From assembly GCF_024223415.1 (NCBI RefSeq), contig NZ_CP100507.1: DNA of 4,051 nucleotides. One strand, written 5' to 3'. Under the pieces are notes generated by a model that had not been told where the DNA came from, ran no database searches, and saw only the letters and a list, made by a program, of their open reading frames with translations. The position numbers and the translations under genes are program-made. Position 1 is the first letter of the stretch; every line of letters begins with the position of its first letter. Origin of the DNA: Escherichia coli. Its GTDB lineage: Bacteria; Pseudomonadota; Gammaproteobacteria; Enterobacterales; Enterobacteriaceae. This document shows, piece by piece, positions 1,164 through 4,051 of the stretch.

Positions 1164-1176
1164 CTTGCTGTGTAAA

Positions 1177-1201
1177 CGAAAAAACCGCCTTGCAGGGCGG
1201 T
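1177..1201 (-). terminator. RNA I rho-independent terminator (stem 1184-1189/1196-1201, loop ttgcag, T-run on the minus strand over 1177-1183)
   Basis: accgcc / ggcggt 6-bp GC-rich stem flanked by an A-run on plus (U-run in RNA I); equivalent to the pBR322 RNA I terminator hairpin. Confidence 0.6.
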
Positions 1202-1278
1202 TTTTCGAAGGTTCTCAGAGCTACCAACTCTTTGAGCCGAGGTAACTGGCTTGGAGGAGCGCAGTCACCAAAACTTGT
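1178..1278 (-). ncRNA. RNA I antisense copy-number control RNA (about 100 nt)
   Basis: Minus-strand start near 1278 (ACAAGTTTTGG, compare pBR322 ACAGTATTTGG) and end at the hairpin plus T-run at 1177-1201; fully complementary to the 5' end of RNA II as in ColE1. Confidence 0.7.
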
Positions 1279-1932: not shown

Positions 1933-2127
1933 TTATATCCCGGTGCGATTTTCCGCTTCAAAGCGTGTCTGTATGCTGTTCTGAAGTTCTTCCGCGAGTT
2001 CGTGCAGCTTCTCACACATGGCGGCCTGTTCGTCAGCATCAAGTGCGTCCAGTTTTTCGAGCAGCGTCAGGCTCTGGCTTTTTATGAATCCTGCCATGTT
2101 GAGTACGGTTTGCTGCTGCTTGTTCAT
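1933..2127 (-). CDS. rop: Rop/Rom (RNA one modulator) copy-number control protein, 64 aa
   Basis: Translation MNKQQQTVLNMAGFIKSQSLTLLEKLDALDADEQAAMCEKLHELAEELQNSIQTRFEAENRTGI resembles ColE1/pBR322 Rop (MTKQEKTALNMARFIRSQTLTLLEKLNELDADEQADICESLHDHADELYRSCLARFGDDGENL, from memory). ATG at 2127-2125, stop TAA at 1935-1933, GGAG about 11 nt upstream, convergent with RNA II as in ColE1. The C-terminal third is divergent. Confidence 0.9.
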   Translation of the reverse strand: MNKQQQTVLNMAGFIKSQSLTLLEKLDALDADEQAAMCEKLHELAEELQNSIQTRFEAENRTGI

Positions 2128-2168
2128 CTTTCTGTTTTCTCCGTTCTTTCTGTCATCTGCGTTGTGTG

Positions 2169-2410: not shown

Positions 2411-2734
2411 ATGACAAAACGAAGTGGAAGTAATACGCGCAGGCGGGCTATCAGTCGCCCTGTTCGTCTGACGGCAGAAGAAGACCAGGAAATCAGAAAA
2501 AGGGCTGCTGAATGCGGCAAGACCGTTTCCGGTTTTTTACGGGCGGCAGCTCTCGGTAAGAAAGTTAACTCACTGACTGATGATCGGGTACTGAAAGAAG
2601 TTATGAGACTGGGGGCGTTACAGAAAAAACTCTTTATCGACGGCAAGCGTGTCGGGGACAGGGAGTATGCGGAGGTGCTGATCGCTATTACGGAGTATCA
2701 CCGTGCCCTGTTATCCAGGCTTATGGCAGATTAG
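2411..2734 (+). CDS. mobC: MobC/MbeC-family relaxosome accessory protein (ribbon-helix-helix), 107 aa; alternative start ATG 2387 (115 aa)
   Basis: Translation MTKRSGSNTRRRAISRPVRLTAEEDQEIRKRAAECGKTVSGFLRAAALGKK... has the MobC/RHH signature (basic N-terminus, beta-strand RPVRLT, helices AEEDQEIRKRAAECG and TVSGFLRAAALG). GGAG at 2398-2401 lies 9 nt before the ATG at 2411; the upstream ATG at 2387 has no SD. Stop TAG at 2732-2734. Confidence 0.8.
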   Translation: MTKRSGSNTRRRAISRPVRLTAEEDQEIRKRAAECGKTVSGFLRAAALGKKVNSLTDDRVLKEVMRLGALQKKLFIDGKRVGDREYAEVLIAITEYHRALLSRLMAD

Positions 2735-2810
2735 CTTCCAGGGGAGAAAACTGTCGAAAACAGACGGTATGAACACTGTAAGCTCCCAAAGTGATCACCA
2801 CTCGCTTTCA

Positions 2811-2824
2811 TGCATAGCTATGCA
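2811..2824. promoter_or_regulatory. ARG-box-like 14-bp perfect palindrome within the cer accessory region (candidate ArgR site)
   Basis: tgcatagctatgca is its own reverse complement; position relative to the XerCD core matches the ArgR box of cer. Identity as an ArgR site is inference. Confidence 0.35.
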
Positions 2825-2898
2825 GCGAGCTGAAAACGATCCTGACGCATTTCCCCGGTTTTCTTAGGGTAAAACATCTCTTTTTGCAGTGTCTGTGT

Positions 2899-2923
2899 CA
2901 GAATCGCGCTGAGCGCGATTCTG
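2899..2923. repeat. 11-bp perfect inverted repeat / hairpin (cagaatcgcgc tga gcgcgattctg) abutting the XerC arm
   Basis: Seen directly; no downstream U-tract, so not a classical terminator. May belong to a cer-internal transcript (Rcd-like) or an accessory-factor site. Confidence 0.5.
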
Positions 2924-2958
2924 TGGTGCGTACAATTAAGGGATTATGGTAAATACAA

Positions 2959-3225
2959 TTGGTTAAATTACTATTGGTGAGAAATGAATATTTCAATAAA
3001 AACAATGACTTAAAAACCGTTGCTCGGTTTGACGGTAAAACCTTAAGAGATGCCTTTTCGAGAAAAATAGCGACTTTTGATGGCAAGGTTTTAAGGGATG
3101 CCTCTTTAAAAAAAGTAGCAACCTTTGACGGTCAGAATTTAAGAGATGCTAGTTCAAAAATTATCCTGAGTGCCGATGCTGAGGTTGGGATTGTTGTTAT
3201 GGCCTTTGTAGCTGAGTTGATTTGA
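2959..3225 (+). CDS. Hypothetical small protein with three tandem 16-aa repeats and a hydrophobic C-terminus; non-ATG start (TTG 2959, or TTG 2974 / GTG 2977)
   Basis: Translation ...TVARFDGKTLRDAFSRK IATFDGKVLRDASLKK VATFDGQNLRDASSKI ILSADAEVGIVVMAFVAELI. Differences between repeat copies fall largely on synonymous third positions (Ala gct/gcg/gca; Asp gac/gat; Gly ggt/ggc; Arg aga/agg; Lys aaa/aag; Thr act/acc), a coding-type pattern. No in-frame ATG and no clear SD; in-frame stop at 2950-2952 limits the 5' end. Confidence 0.5.
   Translation: MVKLLLVRNEYFNKNNDLKTVARFDGKTLRDAFSRKIATFDGKVLRDASLKKVATFDGQNLRDASSKIILSADAEVGIVVMAFVAELI
3019..3162 (+). repeat. Tandem direct repeat, 3 x 48 bp (units 3019-3066, 3067-3114, 3115-3162)
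   Basis: Conserved cores tttgacggtaaaaccttaagagatgcc / tttgatggcaaggttttaagggatgcc / tttgacggtcagaatttaagagatgct at exact 48-bp spacing. Confidence 0.85.
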
Positions 3226-3282
3226 ATCTCATGCTGCATACCTTTTAGCCTATCGCTGGCAGGATAAGGCGCTTTCTTGTTG

Positions 3283-3310
3283 GTGACAGAAAGATAAAAA
3301 ACTTTATAAT
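3283..3310 (+). promoter_or_regulatory. Sigma70-like promoter facing the retron: -35 GTGACA (3283-3288), 16-bp spacer, -10 TATAAT (3305-3310)
   Basis: Perfect -10 consensus and 5/6 -35 at canonical spacing; predicted start about 3317. Lies about 190 nt upstream of a1, so it may drive the retron ncRNA-RT-csp transcript, but no nearer promoter could be identified by eye. Confidence 0.4.
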
Positions 3311-3507
3311 AATCAGCGAAGCGGGCGAACCACGCCTGGCTCTCGCTCTTTAACAAATGGTTACGTGTATGTTGCGCAAGGAAACCGATGCCTTGTTTTT
3401 AAGGCGATCTCGCATGAGATCATGACCGGCCTGGCCGCTAATTAATGGTGAGAACGCCCCTGAGCGTGTATCAGCACTAAAAGAATAGCGACGATTGTCT
3501 GGCAATG

Positions 3508-3520
3508 TGAGTTAAAAGTC
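3508..3520. repeat. Retron a1 inverted repeat (left arm)
   Basis: 13-bp perfect inverted repeat partner of 3780-3792; does not extend on either side. Confidence 0.6.
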
Positions 3521-3594
3521 CCAAAGAGCCAATAGAGTTTTTCCTTGCTTTCCTACTGGTCTGGCAAAATTTCATAACCAATAGGAGTTGCATC

Positions 3595-3777
3595 ATGTTT
3601 ATTATCAACATCAACATTAACGTAACCAAGAGCTCTTCATCTTGTTCTGGAGACGGTCAGATGAAGAAAAAAAGAGAGGTTGGCTCTCTGGAGGCACTGA
3701 AAAAAACACAGTTTTTGTTTTCTATGTGCTTGATTATGTTTAAAGTAATAGATTACGTATCGAAACTTTTTAACTAA
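3595..3777 (+). CDS. Hypothetical 60-aa ORF lying entirely inside the a1-a2 (msr-msd) region; possibly not translated
   Basis: ATG at 3595 preceded by AGGAG (3583-3587) at 7-nt spacing; stop TAA at 3775-3777. Protein MFIINININV... is low-complexity and Lys-rich. Position inside the putative retron ncRNA argues that it may be fortuitous. Confidence 0.2.
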   Translation: MFIINININVTKSSSSCSGDGQMKKKREVGSLEALKKTQFLFSMCLIMFKVIDYVSKLFN

Positions 3778-3779
3778 TC

Positions 3780-3792
3780 GACTTTTAACTCA
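3780..3792. repeat. Retron a2 inverted repeat (right arm), 6 nt upstream of the RT ATG
   Basis: Exact reverse complement of 3508-3520. Flanked by a near-direct repeat actttttaact (3765-3775) / acttttaact (3781-3790). Confidence 0.6.
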
Positions 3793-3798
3793 AACATC

Positions 3799-4051
3799 AT
3801 GAATAAACCCAGGTTTAATGGAACTCCTGTTGCATCTTTGGATTCTTTATCTGCGATGTTAGGCATAGAAAGAAAAAGATTGGACTGGATAGTCAAGTCT
3901 GTATCGATGTCGTACAAGCAGTTTAAGGTTGAAACAGGGAAGAATAAAAAAGAAAGGCAAATTTTTGAACCCAAGAGATCTTTGAAAGGAATTCAAAAAA
4001 AAATAAATAAAGAGATTTTTGAGAAAATTGATTACCCTCATTATTTGCATG
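3799..4051 (+). CDS. Retron-type reverse transcriptase, N-terminal 84 codons (continues past the window end; see 1..887)
   Basis: ATG at 3799, open to the last base of the window. Translation MNKPRFNGTPVASLDSLSAMLGIERKRLDWIVKSVSMSYKQFKVETGKNKKERQIFEPKRSLKGIQKKINKEIFEKIDYPHYLH is colinear with the N-terminal region of retron RTs (RQIFEPKRSLKGIQ resembles the Ec86-type IYQPSRELKALQG segment as I recall it). No Shine-Dalgarno is evident, so the start is the first in-frame ATG after a2. Confidence 0.85.
   Translation, partial: MNKPRFNGTPVASLDSLSAMLGIERKRLDWIVKSVSMSYKQFKVETGKNKKERQIFEPKRSLKGIQKKINKEIFEKIDYPHYLH

What the first reader, a model, noticed from the sequence alone, without database searches (positions are those of the whole stretch)
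2959..3225. Small protein of three 16-aa tandem repeats with a coding-type substitution pattern and non-ATG start, abutting the cer core
Three 48-bp repeats encode (V/I)A(R/T)FDG(K/Q)xLRDAxx(K/R)x. Copies differ mostly at synonymous third positions (Ala uses gct, gcg and gca in the three copies), arguing for selection on the protein rather than a DNA iteron. The ORF has no ATG (TTG 2959 / GTG 2977), begins 5 nt after the XerD arm, and ends in a hydrophobic tail (IILSADAEVGIVVMAFVAELI). I do not recognise the repeat family; it could be a membrane-anchored accessory factor, conceivably linked to the adjacent retron.
Basis: partly seen in the sequence, partly recalled or inferred. Interest (0 to 1): 0.6.

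Follow-up and report, generated by a model that had tools for sequence, protein, structure and literature searches.

The report
Frameshifted beta-flower repeat protein gene
The three 48-bp repeats are a real gene for a small "beta-flower" barrel protein (a known fold family of unknown function) carried beside, but independent of, the plasmid's retron. In this plasmid a one-base deletion in a run of A's has put its original ATG start out of frame.

Summary
Window 2959-3225 is an 88-codon ORF with three 48-bp repeats (3019-3162), 4 nt after the cer XerD arm, and with no in-frame ATG.

It is protein-coding. The copies keep 31/48 residue identities against about 19 expected (P<=1.5e-4). Orthologues show pS 0.81 against pN 0.10.

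The family is identifiable: beta-flower (Pfam PF21785, Tubby clan; Durairaj 2023). AlphaFold gives short beta-hairpins plus a C-terminal helix. The "hydrophobic tail" matches the helix this family typically buries inside the barrel, so it is probably not a membrane anchor.

The missing ATG has an explanation. Relatives with A6 instead of A5 at 2998-3002 start at ATG 2984 (MNISIKNNDLKT...), and this aligns without gaps with Klebsiella, chromosomal and metagenomic homologues. The window therefore carries a start-proximal -1 nt frameshift. A5 and A6 are both common and arise recurrently.

Repeat number varies from 1 to 7 in near-identical plasmids.

Linkage to the retron is not supported. Type V retron plasmids exist without the gene, and the gene exists without retrons.

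This is a new member of a known, uncharacterised family. Its function remains unknown.

The parts
2925..2954 (+). cer core: XerC arm 2925-2935, central region 2936-2943, XerD arm 2944-2954
   Evidence: Sequence GGTGCGTACAA-TTAAGGGA-TTATGGTAAAT read directly. Identification as the ColE1 cer core is from my own knowledge. The region matches hundreds of ColE1-type plasmids.
2976..2980 (+). GGTGA, a Shine-Dalgarno-like element 3 nt upstream of ATG 2984
   Evidence: Read from the sequence; complementarity to the 16S 3' end is inferred. Intact homologues carry AGGAG 7 nt before their ATG (L021, L022).
2984..3013 (+). Ancestral start codon ATG 2984. In this allele it is out of frame and gives only MNISIKTMT*
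   Evidence: In A6 alleles the same ATG opens MNISIKNNDLKT...ELI, and PGAP annotates the CDS from it. It aligns without gaps to MSVTIKDDRLRT (Klebsiella plasmid, chromosome) and MPTTIKDDHF (metagenome).
2998..3002 (+). A5 tract, the site of the frameshift polymorphism (A5, A6 or A7 in relatives)
   Evidence: A5 in 9 distinct plasmids sampled, A6 in 10, A7 in 1. Both A5 and A6 occur with either allele of a SNP pair ~17 nt away, and on 3-, 4- and 5-repeat backgrounds.
2959..3225 (+). ORF as annotated (88 codons from TTG 2959; 82 from GTG 2977); the beta-flower reading frame
   Evidence: PF21785, E 2.5e-4. The exact 88-aa product is seen on 446 contigs and the 82-aa call on 465.
3019..3162 (+). 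Three 48-bp / 16-aa repeats (3019-3066, 3067-3114, 3115-3162). Each is predicted to form one beta-hairpin with FDG(K/Q) at the turn
   Evidence: AlphaFold strands at residues 19-24/28-31, 36-40/44-47 and 52-56/60-63, with pLDDT 84-87.
3163..3225 (+). Degenerate half-repeat (IILSADAE), then the C-terminal hydrophobic helix (residues 76-87 = 3184-3219) and the stop codon
   Evidence: The alignment places it against the '...IDGPGGISLVALWVLLVR' tail of ~94-aa beta-flower proteins.
3283..3310 (+). Promoter-like site GTGACA-16-TATAAT (11 of 12 matches), downstream of the ORF and upstream of the retron non-coding RNA and RT. Not part of the gene; it marks the boundary with the retron unit
   Evidence: the only + strand site in 2700-3850. 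The region from 3270 on is conserved at 87% with the Klebsiella retron plasmid, whereas the ORF region is not alignable at the DNA level.

Best explanation
**What it is.** Window 2959-3225 is a genuine protein-coding gene for a small cytoplasmic beta-flower protein (Pfam PF21785-like, Tubby clan CL0395).

**Predicted architecture.**
- Each 16-residue repeat forms one beta-hairpin 'petal', with FDG(K/Q) at the turn and a Lys/Arg-rich connecting loop.
- An N-terminal half-repeat (SIKNNDLKT), three full repeats and a C-terminal half-repeat (KIILSAD) give eight strands, that is a four-fold barrel.
- The terminal VGIVVMAFVAELI forms the helix that this family packs inside the barrel. It is probably not a membrane anchor.

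**Context.** The gene is a stand-alone cargo gene of ColE1-type plasmids and genomic islands. It sits in the cargo slot next to cer and lies outside the retron transcription unit. It is not a retron component.

**State of this allele.**
- The native start is ATG 2984, preceded by GGTGA.
- A 1-nt contraction of an A-run (A6 to A5, 2998-3002) five codons into the gene puts that ATG out of frame. Only weak non-ATG starts remain (GTG 2977, TTG 2974/2959), or a rare -1 slip on A-AAA-A.
- This allele is therefore an attenuated or OFF state of a recurrently switching site.

**Other variation.** Repeat number changes by whole 48-bp units (1 to 7 copies). This is predicted to change the barrel from 4-fold to 5-, 6- or higher-fold.

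**Shown:** coding constraint, family membership by sequence and predicted fold, the frameshift, both polymorphisms, independence from the retron.

**Inferred:** helix-in-barrel packing, cytoplasmic location, and expression level.

**Speculative (about 0.3):** the protein acts through Lys/Arg/Phe-tipped petals docking on anionic membrane or lipid, as its Tubby/scramblase relatives do.
For: **Coding constraint**
- Between repeat copies, pS is 0.62-0.83 and pN 0.21-0.23.
- Residue identity between copies is 31/48 against ~19 expected, P<=1.5e-4.
- Orthologues L005 and L022 are 72% identical in DNA and 87% in protein, with pS 0.81 and pN 0.10.

**Family**
- PF21785: E 2.5e-4 (window protein) and 2.2e-5 (5-repeat allele); 23 of 26 aligned homologues match.
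- phmmer finds 71 representatives, including ~94-100-aa proteins with the same 16-aa period and a hydrophobic C-terminus. Several carry precomputed PF21785 hits.

**Predicted fold**
- AF2 of the window protein: pLDDT 75, pTM 0.60, nine short strands plus helix 76-87.
- Foldseek: TM 0.7-0.8 to AFDB proteins labelled 4-fold beta flower, MORN variant or cell-wall-binding, the same labels Durairaj et al. report.

**Start codon and frameshift:**; PGAP calls the CDS from that ATG in A6 plasmids.

**Both states are common:** 446 and 465 contigs for the two A5 gene calls against 346 for A6. All four combinations occur with a SNP ~17 nt away.

**Repeat body kept intact:** it is open and in frame in all 19 sampled alleles despite A7-A8 runs, while indels cluster at the start.

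**Independence from the retron:**
Against: - No expression data of any kind exist here.
- No sigma-70-like promoter was found upstream of the ORF. Neither GTG 2977 nor TTG 2959 has a Shine-Dalgarno sequence.
- The Pfam scores (21-25 bits) are below the ~27-bit inclusion level quoted by the family's authors.
- The semiconserved [DNEQ]xxG loop motif is absent from these repeats (RDASLKK).
- The models have only moderate confidence, and the helix region has pLDDT 51-67. I could not inspect coordinates to confirm that the helix sits inside the barrel.
- A 19-residue Kyte-Doolittle window over the tail scores 1.8, which is compatible with membrane insertion.
- Several plasmid alleles are clearly null (L006, L007, L012, L035), so the gene is dispensable and may be decaying on plasmids.
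- The fold family has no known function.
Confidence: 0.75

Rival explanations
1. In this window the gene is simply a dead allele: a frameshifted pseudogene. The 88-codon ORF stays open only because the eight codons upstream of the old start happen to lack stops. The gene is decaying on small plasmids.
For: - ATG 2984 is out of frame and gives only a 9-codon ORF; the alternative starts have no SD.
- A5 lineages carry further start-region lesions: L007 has ATG>ATT, which also creates TAA in the window's frame, and L006 has a second 1-nt deletion.
- L012 is A7, and the Klebsiella 4773-bp plasmids are frameshifted after codon 20.
- Plasmid copies have weaker start signals than the chromosomal and metagenomic copies, which have AGGAG + ATG.
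Against: - The repeat body is in frame and open in all 19 alleles, including 9 A5 alleles. It contains A7-A8 runs that should be more slippage-prone than the A5/A6 run.
- The A5 product is as common as A6 (446 and 465 contigs against 346).
- A5 and A6 interconvert recurrently, so an OFF state need not be permanent.
- The lineages are very young, so the test has limited power.
Confidence: 0.35
2. One reading: a tail-anchored membrane protein. The C-terminal hydrophobic segment spans the inner membrane and displays the repeat domain in the cytoplasm.
For: - The Kyte-Doolittle 19-residue maximum is 1.8 over IILSADAEVGIVVMAFVAE.
- The segment sits at the extreme C-terminus.
- Tubby/scramblase relatives are membrane-associated, and some beta-flowers carry lipoprotein signals (PMC10584680).
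- The helix is the least confident part of both models.
Against: - The uninterrupted apolar run is only 10 residues, with D, E and E inside the 19-residue window.
- Homologous tails (GGISLVALWVLLVR) are equally short.
- The family description says the helix is enclosed by the barrel.
- The best structural matches are barrels with a central helix: At5g01750 and Tubby.
Confidence: 0.15
3. The protein is a third, unrecognised component of the Se72 (type V) retron defence system, for example a modulator or sensor working with the RT and the cold-shock effector.
For: - It is adjacent to the retron on the same strand in the E. coli/Salmonella 4-kb plasmids and in the Klebsiella 4261-bp plasmids.
- An IS26-bounded chromosomal copy carries the ORF, RT and effector together.
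Against: - A promoter-like site lies between the ORF and the retron.
- Type V retron plasmids of Hafnia and Edwardsiella (RT 60-65% identical) have no such ORF.
- The ORF occurs without a retron in Klebsiella 4773-bp plasmids, in pKLP00187_2 and next to a type I R-M system on a chromosome.
- Mestre et al. found only the cold-shock protein associated with type V RTs (PMC7736814).
- About half of the alleles lack an in-frame ATG.
Confidence: 0.06
4. The protein is an immunity- or antitoxin-like small protein, or an accessory of defence systems. It binds and restrains a partner nuclease or toxin, as MORN-variant YwqK-type antitoxins do.
For: - A close homologue (P0031) lies 4 nt upstream of a DUF8426 + Mrr_cat nuclease-domain gene in five independent contigs.
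- Other homologues lie next to hsdMSR, next to an MmeI-type R-M, and near a large AAA ATPase plus an integrase fragment.
- Foldseek neighbours include 'YwqK family antitoxin' and small Rhs-associated proteins.
- There is a weak PADLOC REase_II hit, E 0.0018.
Against: - The sample of contexts is small and uncontrolled. Others are uninformative: FUR/AhpC, a pentapeptide protein, unknowns.
- No conserved partner gene lies next to the window's subfamily: cer, a 137-aa hypothetical protein, or hsdR are upstream in different loci.
- The database labels of the structural neighbours are unverified.
Confidence: 0.15
5. The repeats are a non-coding DNA or RNA element (iteron-like protein-binding sites, a cer accessory sequence, or part of the retron RNA), and the ORF is fortuitous.
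For: - Position directly after the XerD arm.
- Copy number varies by whole units.
- There is no ATG and no SD.
Against: - The substitution pattern is coding-type, both between copies and between orthologues.
- Homologous proteins exist across many lineages with a proper SD + ATG.
- There is no Rfam match in the region.
- A ColE1 replicon has no Rep/iteron system.
- The retron promoter and RNA lie downstream.
- At the DNA level the region is the least conserved part between the E. coli and Klebsiella plasmids, yet the protein is retained.
Confidence: 0.03

Closest known systems
Beta-flower proteins (Pfam PF21785 Bflower_2, PF21784 Bflower, PF21786 Bflower_3; Durairaj et al., Nature 2023, PMC10584680)
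   Same: - Tandem short beta-hairpin repeats with the same 16-residue period as the ~94-aa homologues (KIAEFDGKxIRDxxGxK against KVATFDGKVLRDASLKK).
- A D-G turn, Lys/Arg/Phe-rich loops and a C-terminal hydrophobic helix.
- Small size, bacterial, no known function.
- Significant HMM and phmmer matches and matching predicted fold.
   Different: - The linker between the last strand and the helix is shorter.
- The semiconserved [DNEQ]xxG loop motif is replaced by D-A-S/F-L/S.
- Pfam bit scores are below the authors' 27-bit level.
- Repeat number is polymorphic (1-7) within one plasmid lineage.
- This allele has lost its in-frame ATG.
Tubby C-terminal domain / LURP-one-related (At5g01750, DUF567) / phospholipid scramblase fold (Pfam clan CL0395)
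   Different: - No detectable sequence similarity (4-10% identity).
- Strands and loops are much shorter.
- The window's 3-repeat allele has only eight core strands.
- Circular permutation relative to Tubby is reported for the family but was not examined here.
- Lipid binding is untested.
MORN-variant / YwqK-type repeat proteins
   Same: Hairpin repeats with a G-containing turn, and small proteins. They appear among the Foldseek neighbours.
   Different: No Pfam MORN hit was found. The resemblance rests on database labels of AFDB entries only.
Accessory ORFs of retrons (type V, Retron-Sen1/Se72: RT + cold-shock effector)
   Same: A small ORF next to a retron on the same strand. The plasmid is the Se72-type plasmid family.
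   Different: The ORF lies upstream of the retron promoter. It is absent from other type V retrons and present without retrons.
Contingency (phase-variable) loci with homopolymer and in-frame tandem-repeat tracts
   Same: A start-proximal homopolymer changes length recurrently and moves the start codon in or out of frame. There is also in-frame unit-number variation.
   Different: The tract is only 5-7 A, shorter than classical switching tracts (my own knowledge). The switching rate is unknown. It lies on a multicopy plasmid.

Membership tests
Beta-flower (PF21785/PF21784/PF21786) | Significant match to the family HMM | tested here: inconclusive
   Window protein 21.3 bits, i-E 2.5e-4. The 5-repeat allele scores 24.7 bits, i-E 2.2e-5. 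Both are significant by E-value but below the ~27-bit inclusion level the authors quote.
Beta-flower (PF21785/PF21784/PF21786) | Sequence homology to recognised members | tested here: met
   phmmer finds 71 representatives at E<=1e-3. 23 of 26 aligned homologues hit PF21785 at E<=1e-3. Neighbouring-gene tables list PF21785 for P0029, P0031, P0033, P0039-P0041 and P0043-P0044 (weak for P0029, P0040 and P0041).
Beta-flower (PF21785/PF21784/PF21786) | Barrel of 8, 10 or 12 short antiparallel strands built from repeated hairpins | tested here: met
   By prediction only. The window protein has 9 strands, of which the 2 formed by the frameshift-specific N-terminus have low pLDDT and the other 7 belong to the repeats and the C-terminal half-repeat. 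The 5-repeat ATG allele has 12 strands. Foldseek TM is 0.7-0.88 to AFDB beta-flower-like proteins.
Beta-flower (PF21785/PF21784/PF21786) | C-terminal hydrophobic helix enclosed in the barrel (in 'many' members) | tested here: inconclusive
Beta-flower (PF21785/PF21784/PF21786) | Semiconserved [DNEQ]xxG motif at the hairpin tip | tested here: not met
   The repeats read RDAFSRK / RDASLKK / RDASSKI where homologues have RDxxGxK. The motif is only semiconserved. The other turn keeps F-D-G.
Tubby C-terminal domain / LOR / scramblase | 12-stranded barrel with a central helix, with detectable sequence or HMM similarity | tested here: not met
Retron type V (Se72) system component | Co-occurrence with type V RTs across lineages, within the retron transcription unit | tested here: not met
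   Absent from the Hafnia and Edwardsiella type V plasmids. Present without a retron in L022, L035 and L038. A promoter-like site separates it from the retron.
Tail-anchored / transmembrane protein | Apolar segment long enough to span the bilayer (~18-20 residues) | tested here: inconclusive
   The longest uncharged apolar run is 10 residues. The KD 19-residue window scores 1.8 but includes D, E and E. No dedicated TM predictor was available.
Plasmid iterons / cis-acting DNA repeats | Conservation at the DNA level independent of reading frame, with a cognate Rep protein | tested here: not met
   The substitution pattern is coding-type. The replicon is ColE1-type, with RNAI and Rop and no Rep.
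Pentapeptide-repeat protein (label on UniProt relatives A0A5H6M5V2, 'YjbI') | Tandem 5-residue repeats; Pfam Pentapeptide hit | tested here: not met
   The period is 16 residues. There is no Pentapeptide hit in Pfam. The labels were seen.
Phase-variable contingency locus | Recurrent, reversible length change of a simple tract that switches expression | tested here: inconclusive
   Recurrent A5/A6/A7 changes are shown on different haplotypes and repeat numbers. Both states are abundant. The effect on expression and the switching rate cannot be tested here.

The most novel reading that the evidence does not exclude
The locus may be a naturally tunable beta-flower. Within one near-identical plasmid lineage, whole-petal gains and losses (1 to 7 repeats) would reset the barrel from 4-fold to 5-, 6- and 8-fold symmetry. 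A start-proximal A-tract would toggle the ATG in and out of frame. Both changes would be maintained by selection, because the protein is a target or sensor in phage or plasmid conflict; family members repeatedly sit beside restriction, retron and nuclease genes. If transcription comes from read-through of the dimer-activated Pcer/rcd promoter, which points into the ORF, its expression would also be tied to plasmid multimer state.
Probability: 0.15. Interest if true: 0.7.

Novelty: new member of a known kind. Interest (0 to 1): 0.4.

Why it matters
**Annotation.** A 'hypothetical protein' carried by hundreds of sequenced E. coli, Salmonella and Shigella plasmids, mislabelled 'pentapeptide repeat/YjbI' in some databases, can now be placed in the beta-flower fold family. 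Its start codon can be corrected to ATG 2984 in A6 alleles.

**Retron Se72.** The ORF next to the retron should not be counted as a system component.

**Protein evolution.** The plasmid family offers a rare natural series: an otherwise identical protein with 1, 2, 3, 4, 5 or 7 hairpin units. This is a ready-made test of how repeat number sets the symmetry and stability of a closed barrel.

**Function of the family.** The repeated proximity of family members to restriction-modification, retron and Mrr-type nuclease genes gives a first testable lead for a fold with no known function.

Tried and rejected
- **Rfam** on the whole window at E<=1: only RNAI at 1176-1276, nothing in 2900-3300.
- **NCBIfam, PADLOC and PHROGs:** no meaningful family. 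There are weak hits to an alpha-amylase model, to a PADLOC REase_II model (E 0.0018), and to PHROGs of unknown function such as phrog_8039 (E 3.4e-5 for the 5-repeat allele).
- **PDB sequence search** with the family profile: no match at E<=1.
- **Promoter scan** of 2700-3850: no site upstream of the ORF. Manual inspection found only a lone TACAAT at 2954-2959 with no -35 element.
- **blastn of the window against the Klebsiella retron plasmid:** the ORF region does not align at the DNA level, so the orthologue had to be found by translation.
- **A reading of my own that I withdrew.** I first took GTG 2977 as the conserved start, equated it with the Klebsiella GTG, and treated the N-terminal 'NEYFNK' as a degenerate first repeat (from the MAFFT alignment). 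I rejected this for three reasons:
  - MNISIKNNDLKT aligns without gaps to MSVTIKDDRLRT and MPTTIKDDHF.
  - Intact homologues have AGGAG + ATG at that position.
  - PGAP uses that ATG in A6 plasmids.
- **Sequencing error as the cause of A5/A6.** Rejected. Plasmid sizes track the state (4051/4052, 4147/4148), and each exact product is seen on hundreds of contigs.
- **Original plasmid and retron papers** (Rychlik 2001, PMC99502; Pilousova & Rychlik 2011, PMC11114809) are not held. I could not check whether the ORF was described there, or whether it was included in the constructs used for defence assays.
- **Literature search for the Pfam accessions:** only the two Durairaj et al. texts were found, so there is no functional study in the held library.
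Full report
**1. What the window is.**
The 4051 bases are a complete circular ColE1-type plasmid, 100% identical to E. coli pPSS-15_3, NZ_AP027712.1. Its contents are:
- a retron reverse transcriptase that runs across the window ends (3799-4051 plus 1-887);
- a 'retron Se72 family effector' with a cold-shock domain (892-1095);
- RNAI (1176-1276, minus strand);
- rop (1933-2127, minus strand);
- a mobA/nikA gene (2411-2734);
- the cer core GGTGCGTACAA-TTAAGGGA-TTATGGTAAAT at 2925-2954;
- the ORF of the finding at 2959-3225, annotated as a hypothetical protein.

Se72 (Retron-Sen1) is the type V retron, first found on a Salmonella Enteritidis plasmid. It guards RecBCD.

**2. The observation.**
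- Tandem Repeats Finder reports a 48-bp period over 3028-3160 (2.8 copies, 71% matches, no indels).
- In codon register the three units are 3019-3066, 3067-3114 and 3115-3162. A degenerate fourth unit leads into the hydrophobic C-terminus.
- Only this frame is open through the array.
- The copies are 65-69% identical in DNA. Synonymous differences are near saturation (pS 0.62-0.83) and non-synonymous ones are three to four times rarer (pN 0.21-0.23).
- The 31 of 48 pairwise residue identities exceed two null models (about 19 +/- 2.5-2.9; P<=1.5e-4).
- 'Mostly third positions' is an overstatement, since 11 of 22 variable columns are third positions. The inference of selection on the protein is still sound.

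**3. Evidence from relatives that it is a real gene.**
- A Klebsiella 4261-bp plasmid carries the same retron (78-87% DNA identity across retron and origin). At the same place after its own cer core it has a 48-codon ORF, MSVTIKDDRLRTIATFDGKPLKDDRLRT...VVVAFAARLF. Its DNA no longer aligns with the window.
- A 64-residue version sits on a 404-kb chromosomal scaffold. It is preceded by AGGAG and an ATG.
- Between those two, DNA identity is 72% and protein identity 87% (pS 0.81, pN 0.10).

This is clear purifying selection on the protein.

**4. The family.**
- *HMM match.* Pfam matches the window protein to PF21785 (5-fold beta-flower) at E 2.5e-4 and the natural 5-repeat allele at E 2.2e-5. Of the 26 aligned homologues, 23 match.
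- *Homologues.* An exhaustive phmmer search finds 71 representatives. Many are ~94-100-residue proteins with the same 16-residue period (for example KIAEFDGKxIRDxxGxK) and a short hydrophobic C-terminus.
- *Published description.* Durairaj et al. (Nature 2023) describe the fold as shallow barrels of 8, 10 or 12 short strands built from hairpin petals. Lys/Arg/Phe sit at the loop tips. [quoted passage not shown]
- *Predicted structures.*
  - The window protein gives short strands plus helix 76-87 (pLDDT 75, pTM 0.60).
  - Its Foldseek matches (TM 0.7-0.8) are AFDB entries labelled 4-fold beta flower, MORN variant or cell-wall-binding.
  - The 5-repeat allele gives 12 strands plus a helix.
- *The hydrophobic tail.* It is best read as the core helix of the barrel. 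This rests on predictions. The helix is the least confident region, and simple hydropathy does not exclude membrane insertion.
- *Function.* No functional study of the family is in the held literature.

**5. Why there is no ATG.**
- In many relatives PGAP starts the CDS at the equivalent of window ATG 2984.
- Those plasmids have six A's where the window has five (2998-3002). With A6 the ATG, preceded by GGTGA, opens MNISIKNNDLKTVARFDG....
- That N-terminus aligns residue for residue with MSVTIKDDRLRT (Klebsiella plasmid and chromosome) and MPTTIKDDHF (metagenome). The last two have AGGAG + ATG.
- In the window, the ATG frame stops after nine codons (2984-3013). The annotated ORF is open back to TTG 2959 only because the few upstream codons lack stops.
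- The window allele is therefore a start-proximal -1 nt frameshift. It is not a gene with a native non-ATG start.

**6. Polymorphism.**
- *A-tract.* The tract is A5 in 9 distinct plasmids sampled, A6 in 10 and A7 in 1.
  - Both A5 and A6 occur on 3-, 4- and 5-repeat backgrounds and with either allele of a SNP pair ~17 nt away, so the change is recurrent.
  - It is not a sequencing artefact. The exact A5 products are recorded on 446 and 465 contigs (two gene calls of the same allele) and the A6 product on 346. Plasmid sizes also track the state (4051/4052, 4147/4148).
- *Repeat number.* It is 1, 2, 3, 4, 5 or 7, through gain or loss of one 48-bp unit (FDGKVLRDASLKKVAT).
- *Body against start.* The repeat body is in frame and open in all 19 alleles, although it contains A7-A8 runs. 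Every indel and start-destroying change lies in the first ~35 nt. This suggests the body stays under constraint even where the ATG is displaced. The lineages are young and not independent, so the point is suggestive only.
- *Null alleles.* Clear nulls exist: L007 (ATG>ATT, which also creates a stop), L006, L012, and the frameshifted Klebsiella 4773-bp plasmids.

**7. Relation to the retron and to cer.**
- The only strong promoter-like site in 2700-3850 (GTGACA-16-TATAAT, 3283-3310) lies after the ORF and before the retron RNA.
- Type V retron plasmids of Hafnia and Edwardsiella have no such ORF.
- The ORF occurs without a retron in several places:
  - on Klebsiella 4773-bp plasmids, alongside a radical-SAM gene;
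  - on pKLP00187_2, where it is truncated by Tn5403;
  - downstream of hsdMSR, next to a tRNA-Leu fragment on a chromosome.
- Linkage is therefore not supported in either direction.
- The ORF has no recognisable promoter of its own. rcd/Pcer in cer is transcribed in the same direction as RNAII (PMC2831885). That is the + strand here, pointing into the ORF. Read-through from Pcer, or from mobA, is the most plausible source of transcripts. This is inference only.

**8. Function.**
The function is unknown for the whole fold family. The working model has three parts.
- The protein is a soluble or peripherally membrane-associated barrel whose basic, Phe-tipped petals contact anionic lipid, by analogy with its Tubby/scramblase clan relatives. 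I give this about 0.3.
- A second lead comes from gene neighbourhoods.
  - A close homologue lies 4 nt upstream of a DUF8426 + Mrr_cat nuclease gene in five contigs.
  - Others lie beside type I and MmeI-type restriction systems or a large AAA ATPase.
  - Other contexts are uninformative, and the sample is small and uncontrolled.
- The window allele itself is probably expressed weakly or not at all.

**9. Verdict.**
- The coding interpretation is right, and the family can be named.
- The membrane-anchor and retron ideas are not supported.
- The 'non-ATG start' is a frameshift polymorphism.
- This is a new member of a known but functionally dark family. Its most interesting aspect is the natural series of repeat-number variants combined with a recurrently toggling start.

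Noticed in passing
window 3283-3800: Upstream of the RT (which starts at 3799) lie a strong promoter-like site (3283-3310) and two long-range inverted repeats: 3358-3374/3612-3628 (17 nt, 88%) and 3508-3520/3780-3792 (13 nt, 100%). These are candidates for the a1/a2 stems of the Se72 non-coding RNA. A 60-codon ATG ORF (3595-3777) overlaps them, perhaps the 'hairpin-containing ORF' mentioned by Simon et al.. Rfam has no model that matches.
   Followed up: partly
window 2950-2978: A 15-nt direct repeat (TAAATACAATTGGT / TAAATTACTATTGGT; TRF score 42) overlaps the end of the XerD arm and the first codons of the annotated ORF. It might be a degenerate second XerD half-site or simply chance.
   Followed up: no
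window 2885-3300 and loci L002-L020: Across 18 related plasmids, the 125 bp spanning the cer core and the ORF start has 18 variable columns. The 414 bp from the ORF's last 75 nt into the retron promoter and RNA has only 2. This fits mosaicism created by recombination at cer, with a nearly invariant retron module to its right.
   Followed up: partly
L024-L028 (metagenome/Logan contigs): A 100-aa PF21785 beta-flower gene sits 4 nt upstream of a 335-aa DUF8426 + Mrr_cat (restriction-endonuclease-like) gene in five independent contigs. This looks like a two-gene operon, possibly a defence or toxin-immunity pair.
   Followed up: no
L013 (E. coli PEC240 chromosome, NZ_CM168014.1 727-732 kb): A segment holding the 5-repeat beta-flower ORF, the Se72-type RT, the effector and a fragment of the plasmid replication region is bracketed by IS26 copies in a chromosome. 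This is a plasmid piece captured by IS26.
   Followed up: no
L035 (Klebsiella 4773-bp ColRNAI plasmids, e.g. NZ_CP103569.1): The cargo region after cer holds a 137-aa hypothetical gene, a frameshifted 5-repeat beta-flower gene and a radical-SAM protein gene, with no retron. The same 137-aa-type gene precedes the beta-flower ORF on pKLP00187_2.
   Followed up: partly
window 2127-2163: An 18-bp tandem repeat (2.1 copies, 84% matches) lies immediately upstream of the rop start on the minus strand.
   Followed up: no
L022 5400-5560 (chromosomal scaffold): The 3' part of a tRNA-Leu-like sequence lies ~300 bp downstream of the chromosomal beta-flower gene. The gene itself follows a type I R-M system, and a TacA/acetyltransferase toxin-antitoxin pair is nearby. 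The gene therefore sits at the edge of a tRNA-associated island.
   Followed up: no
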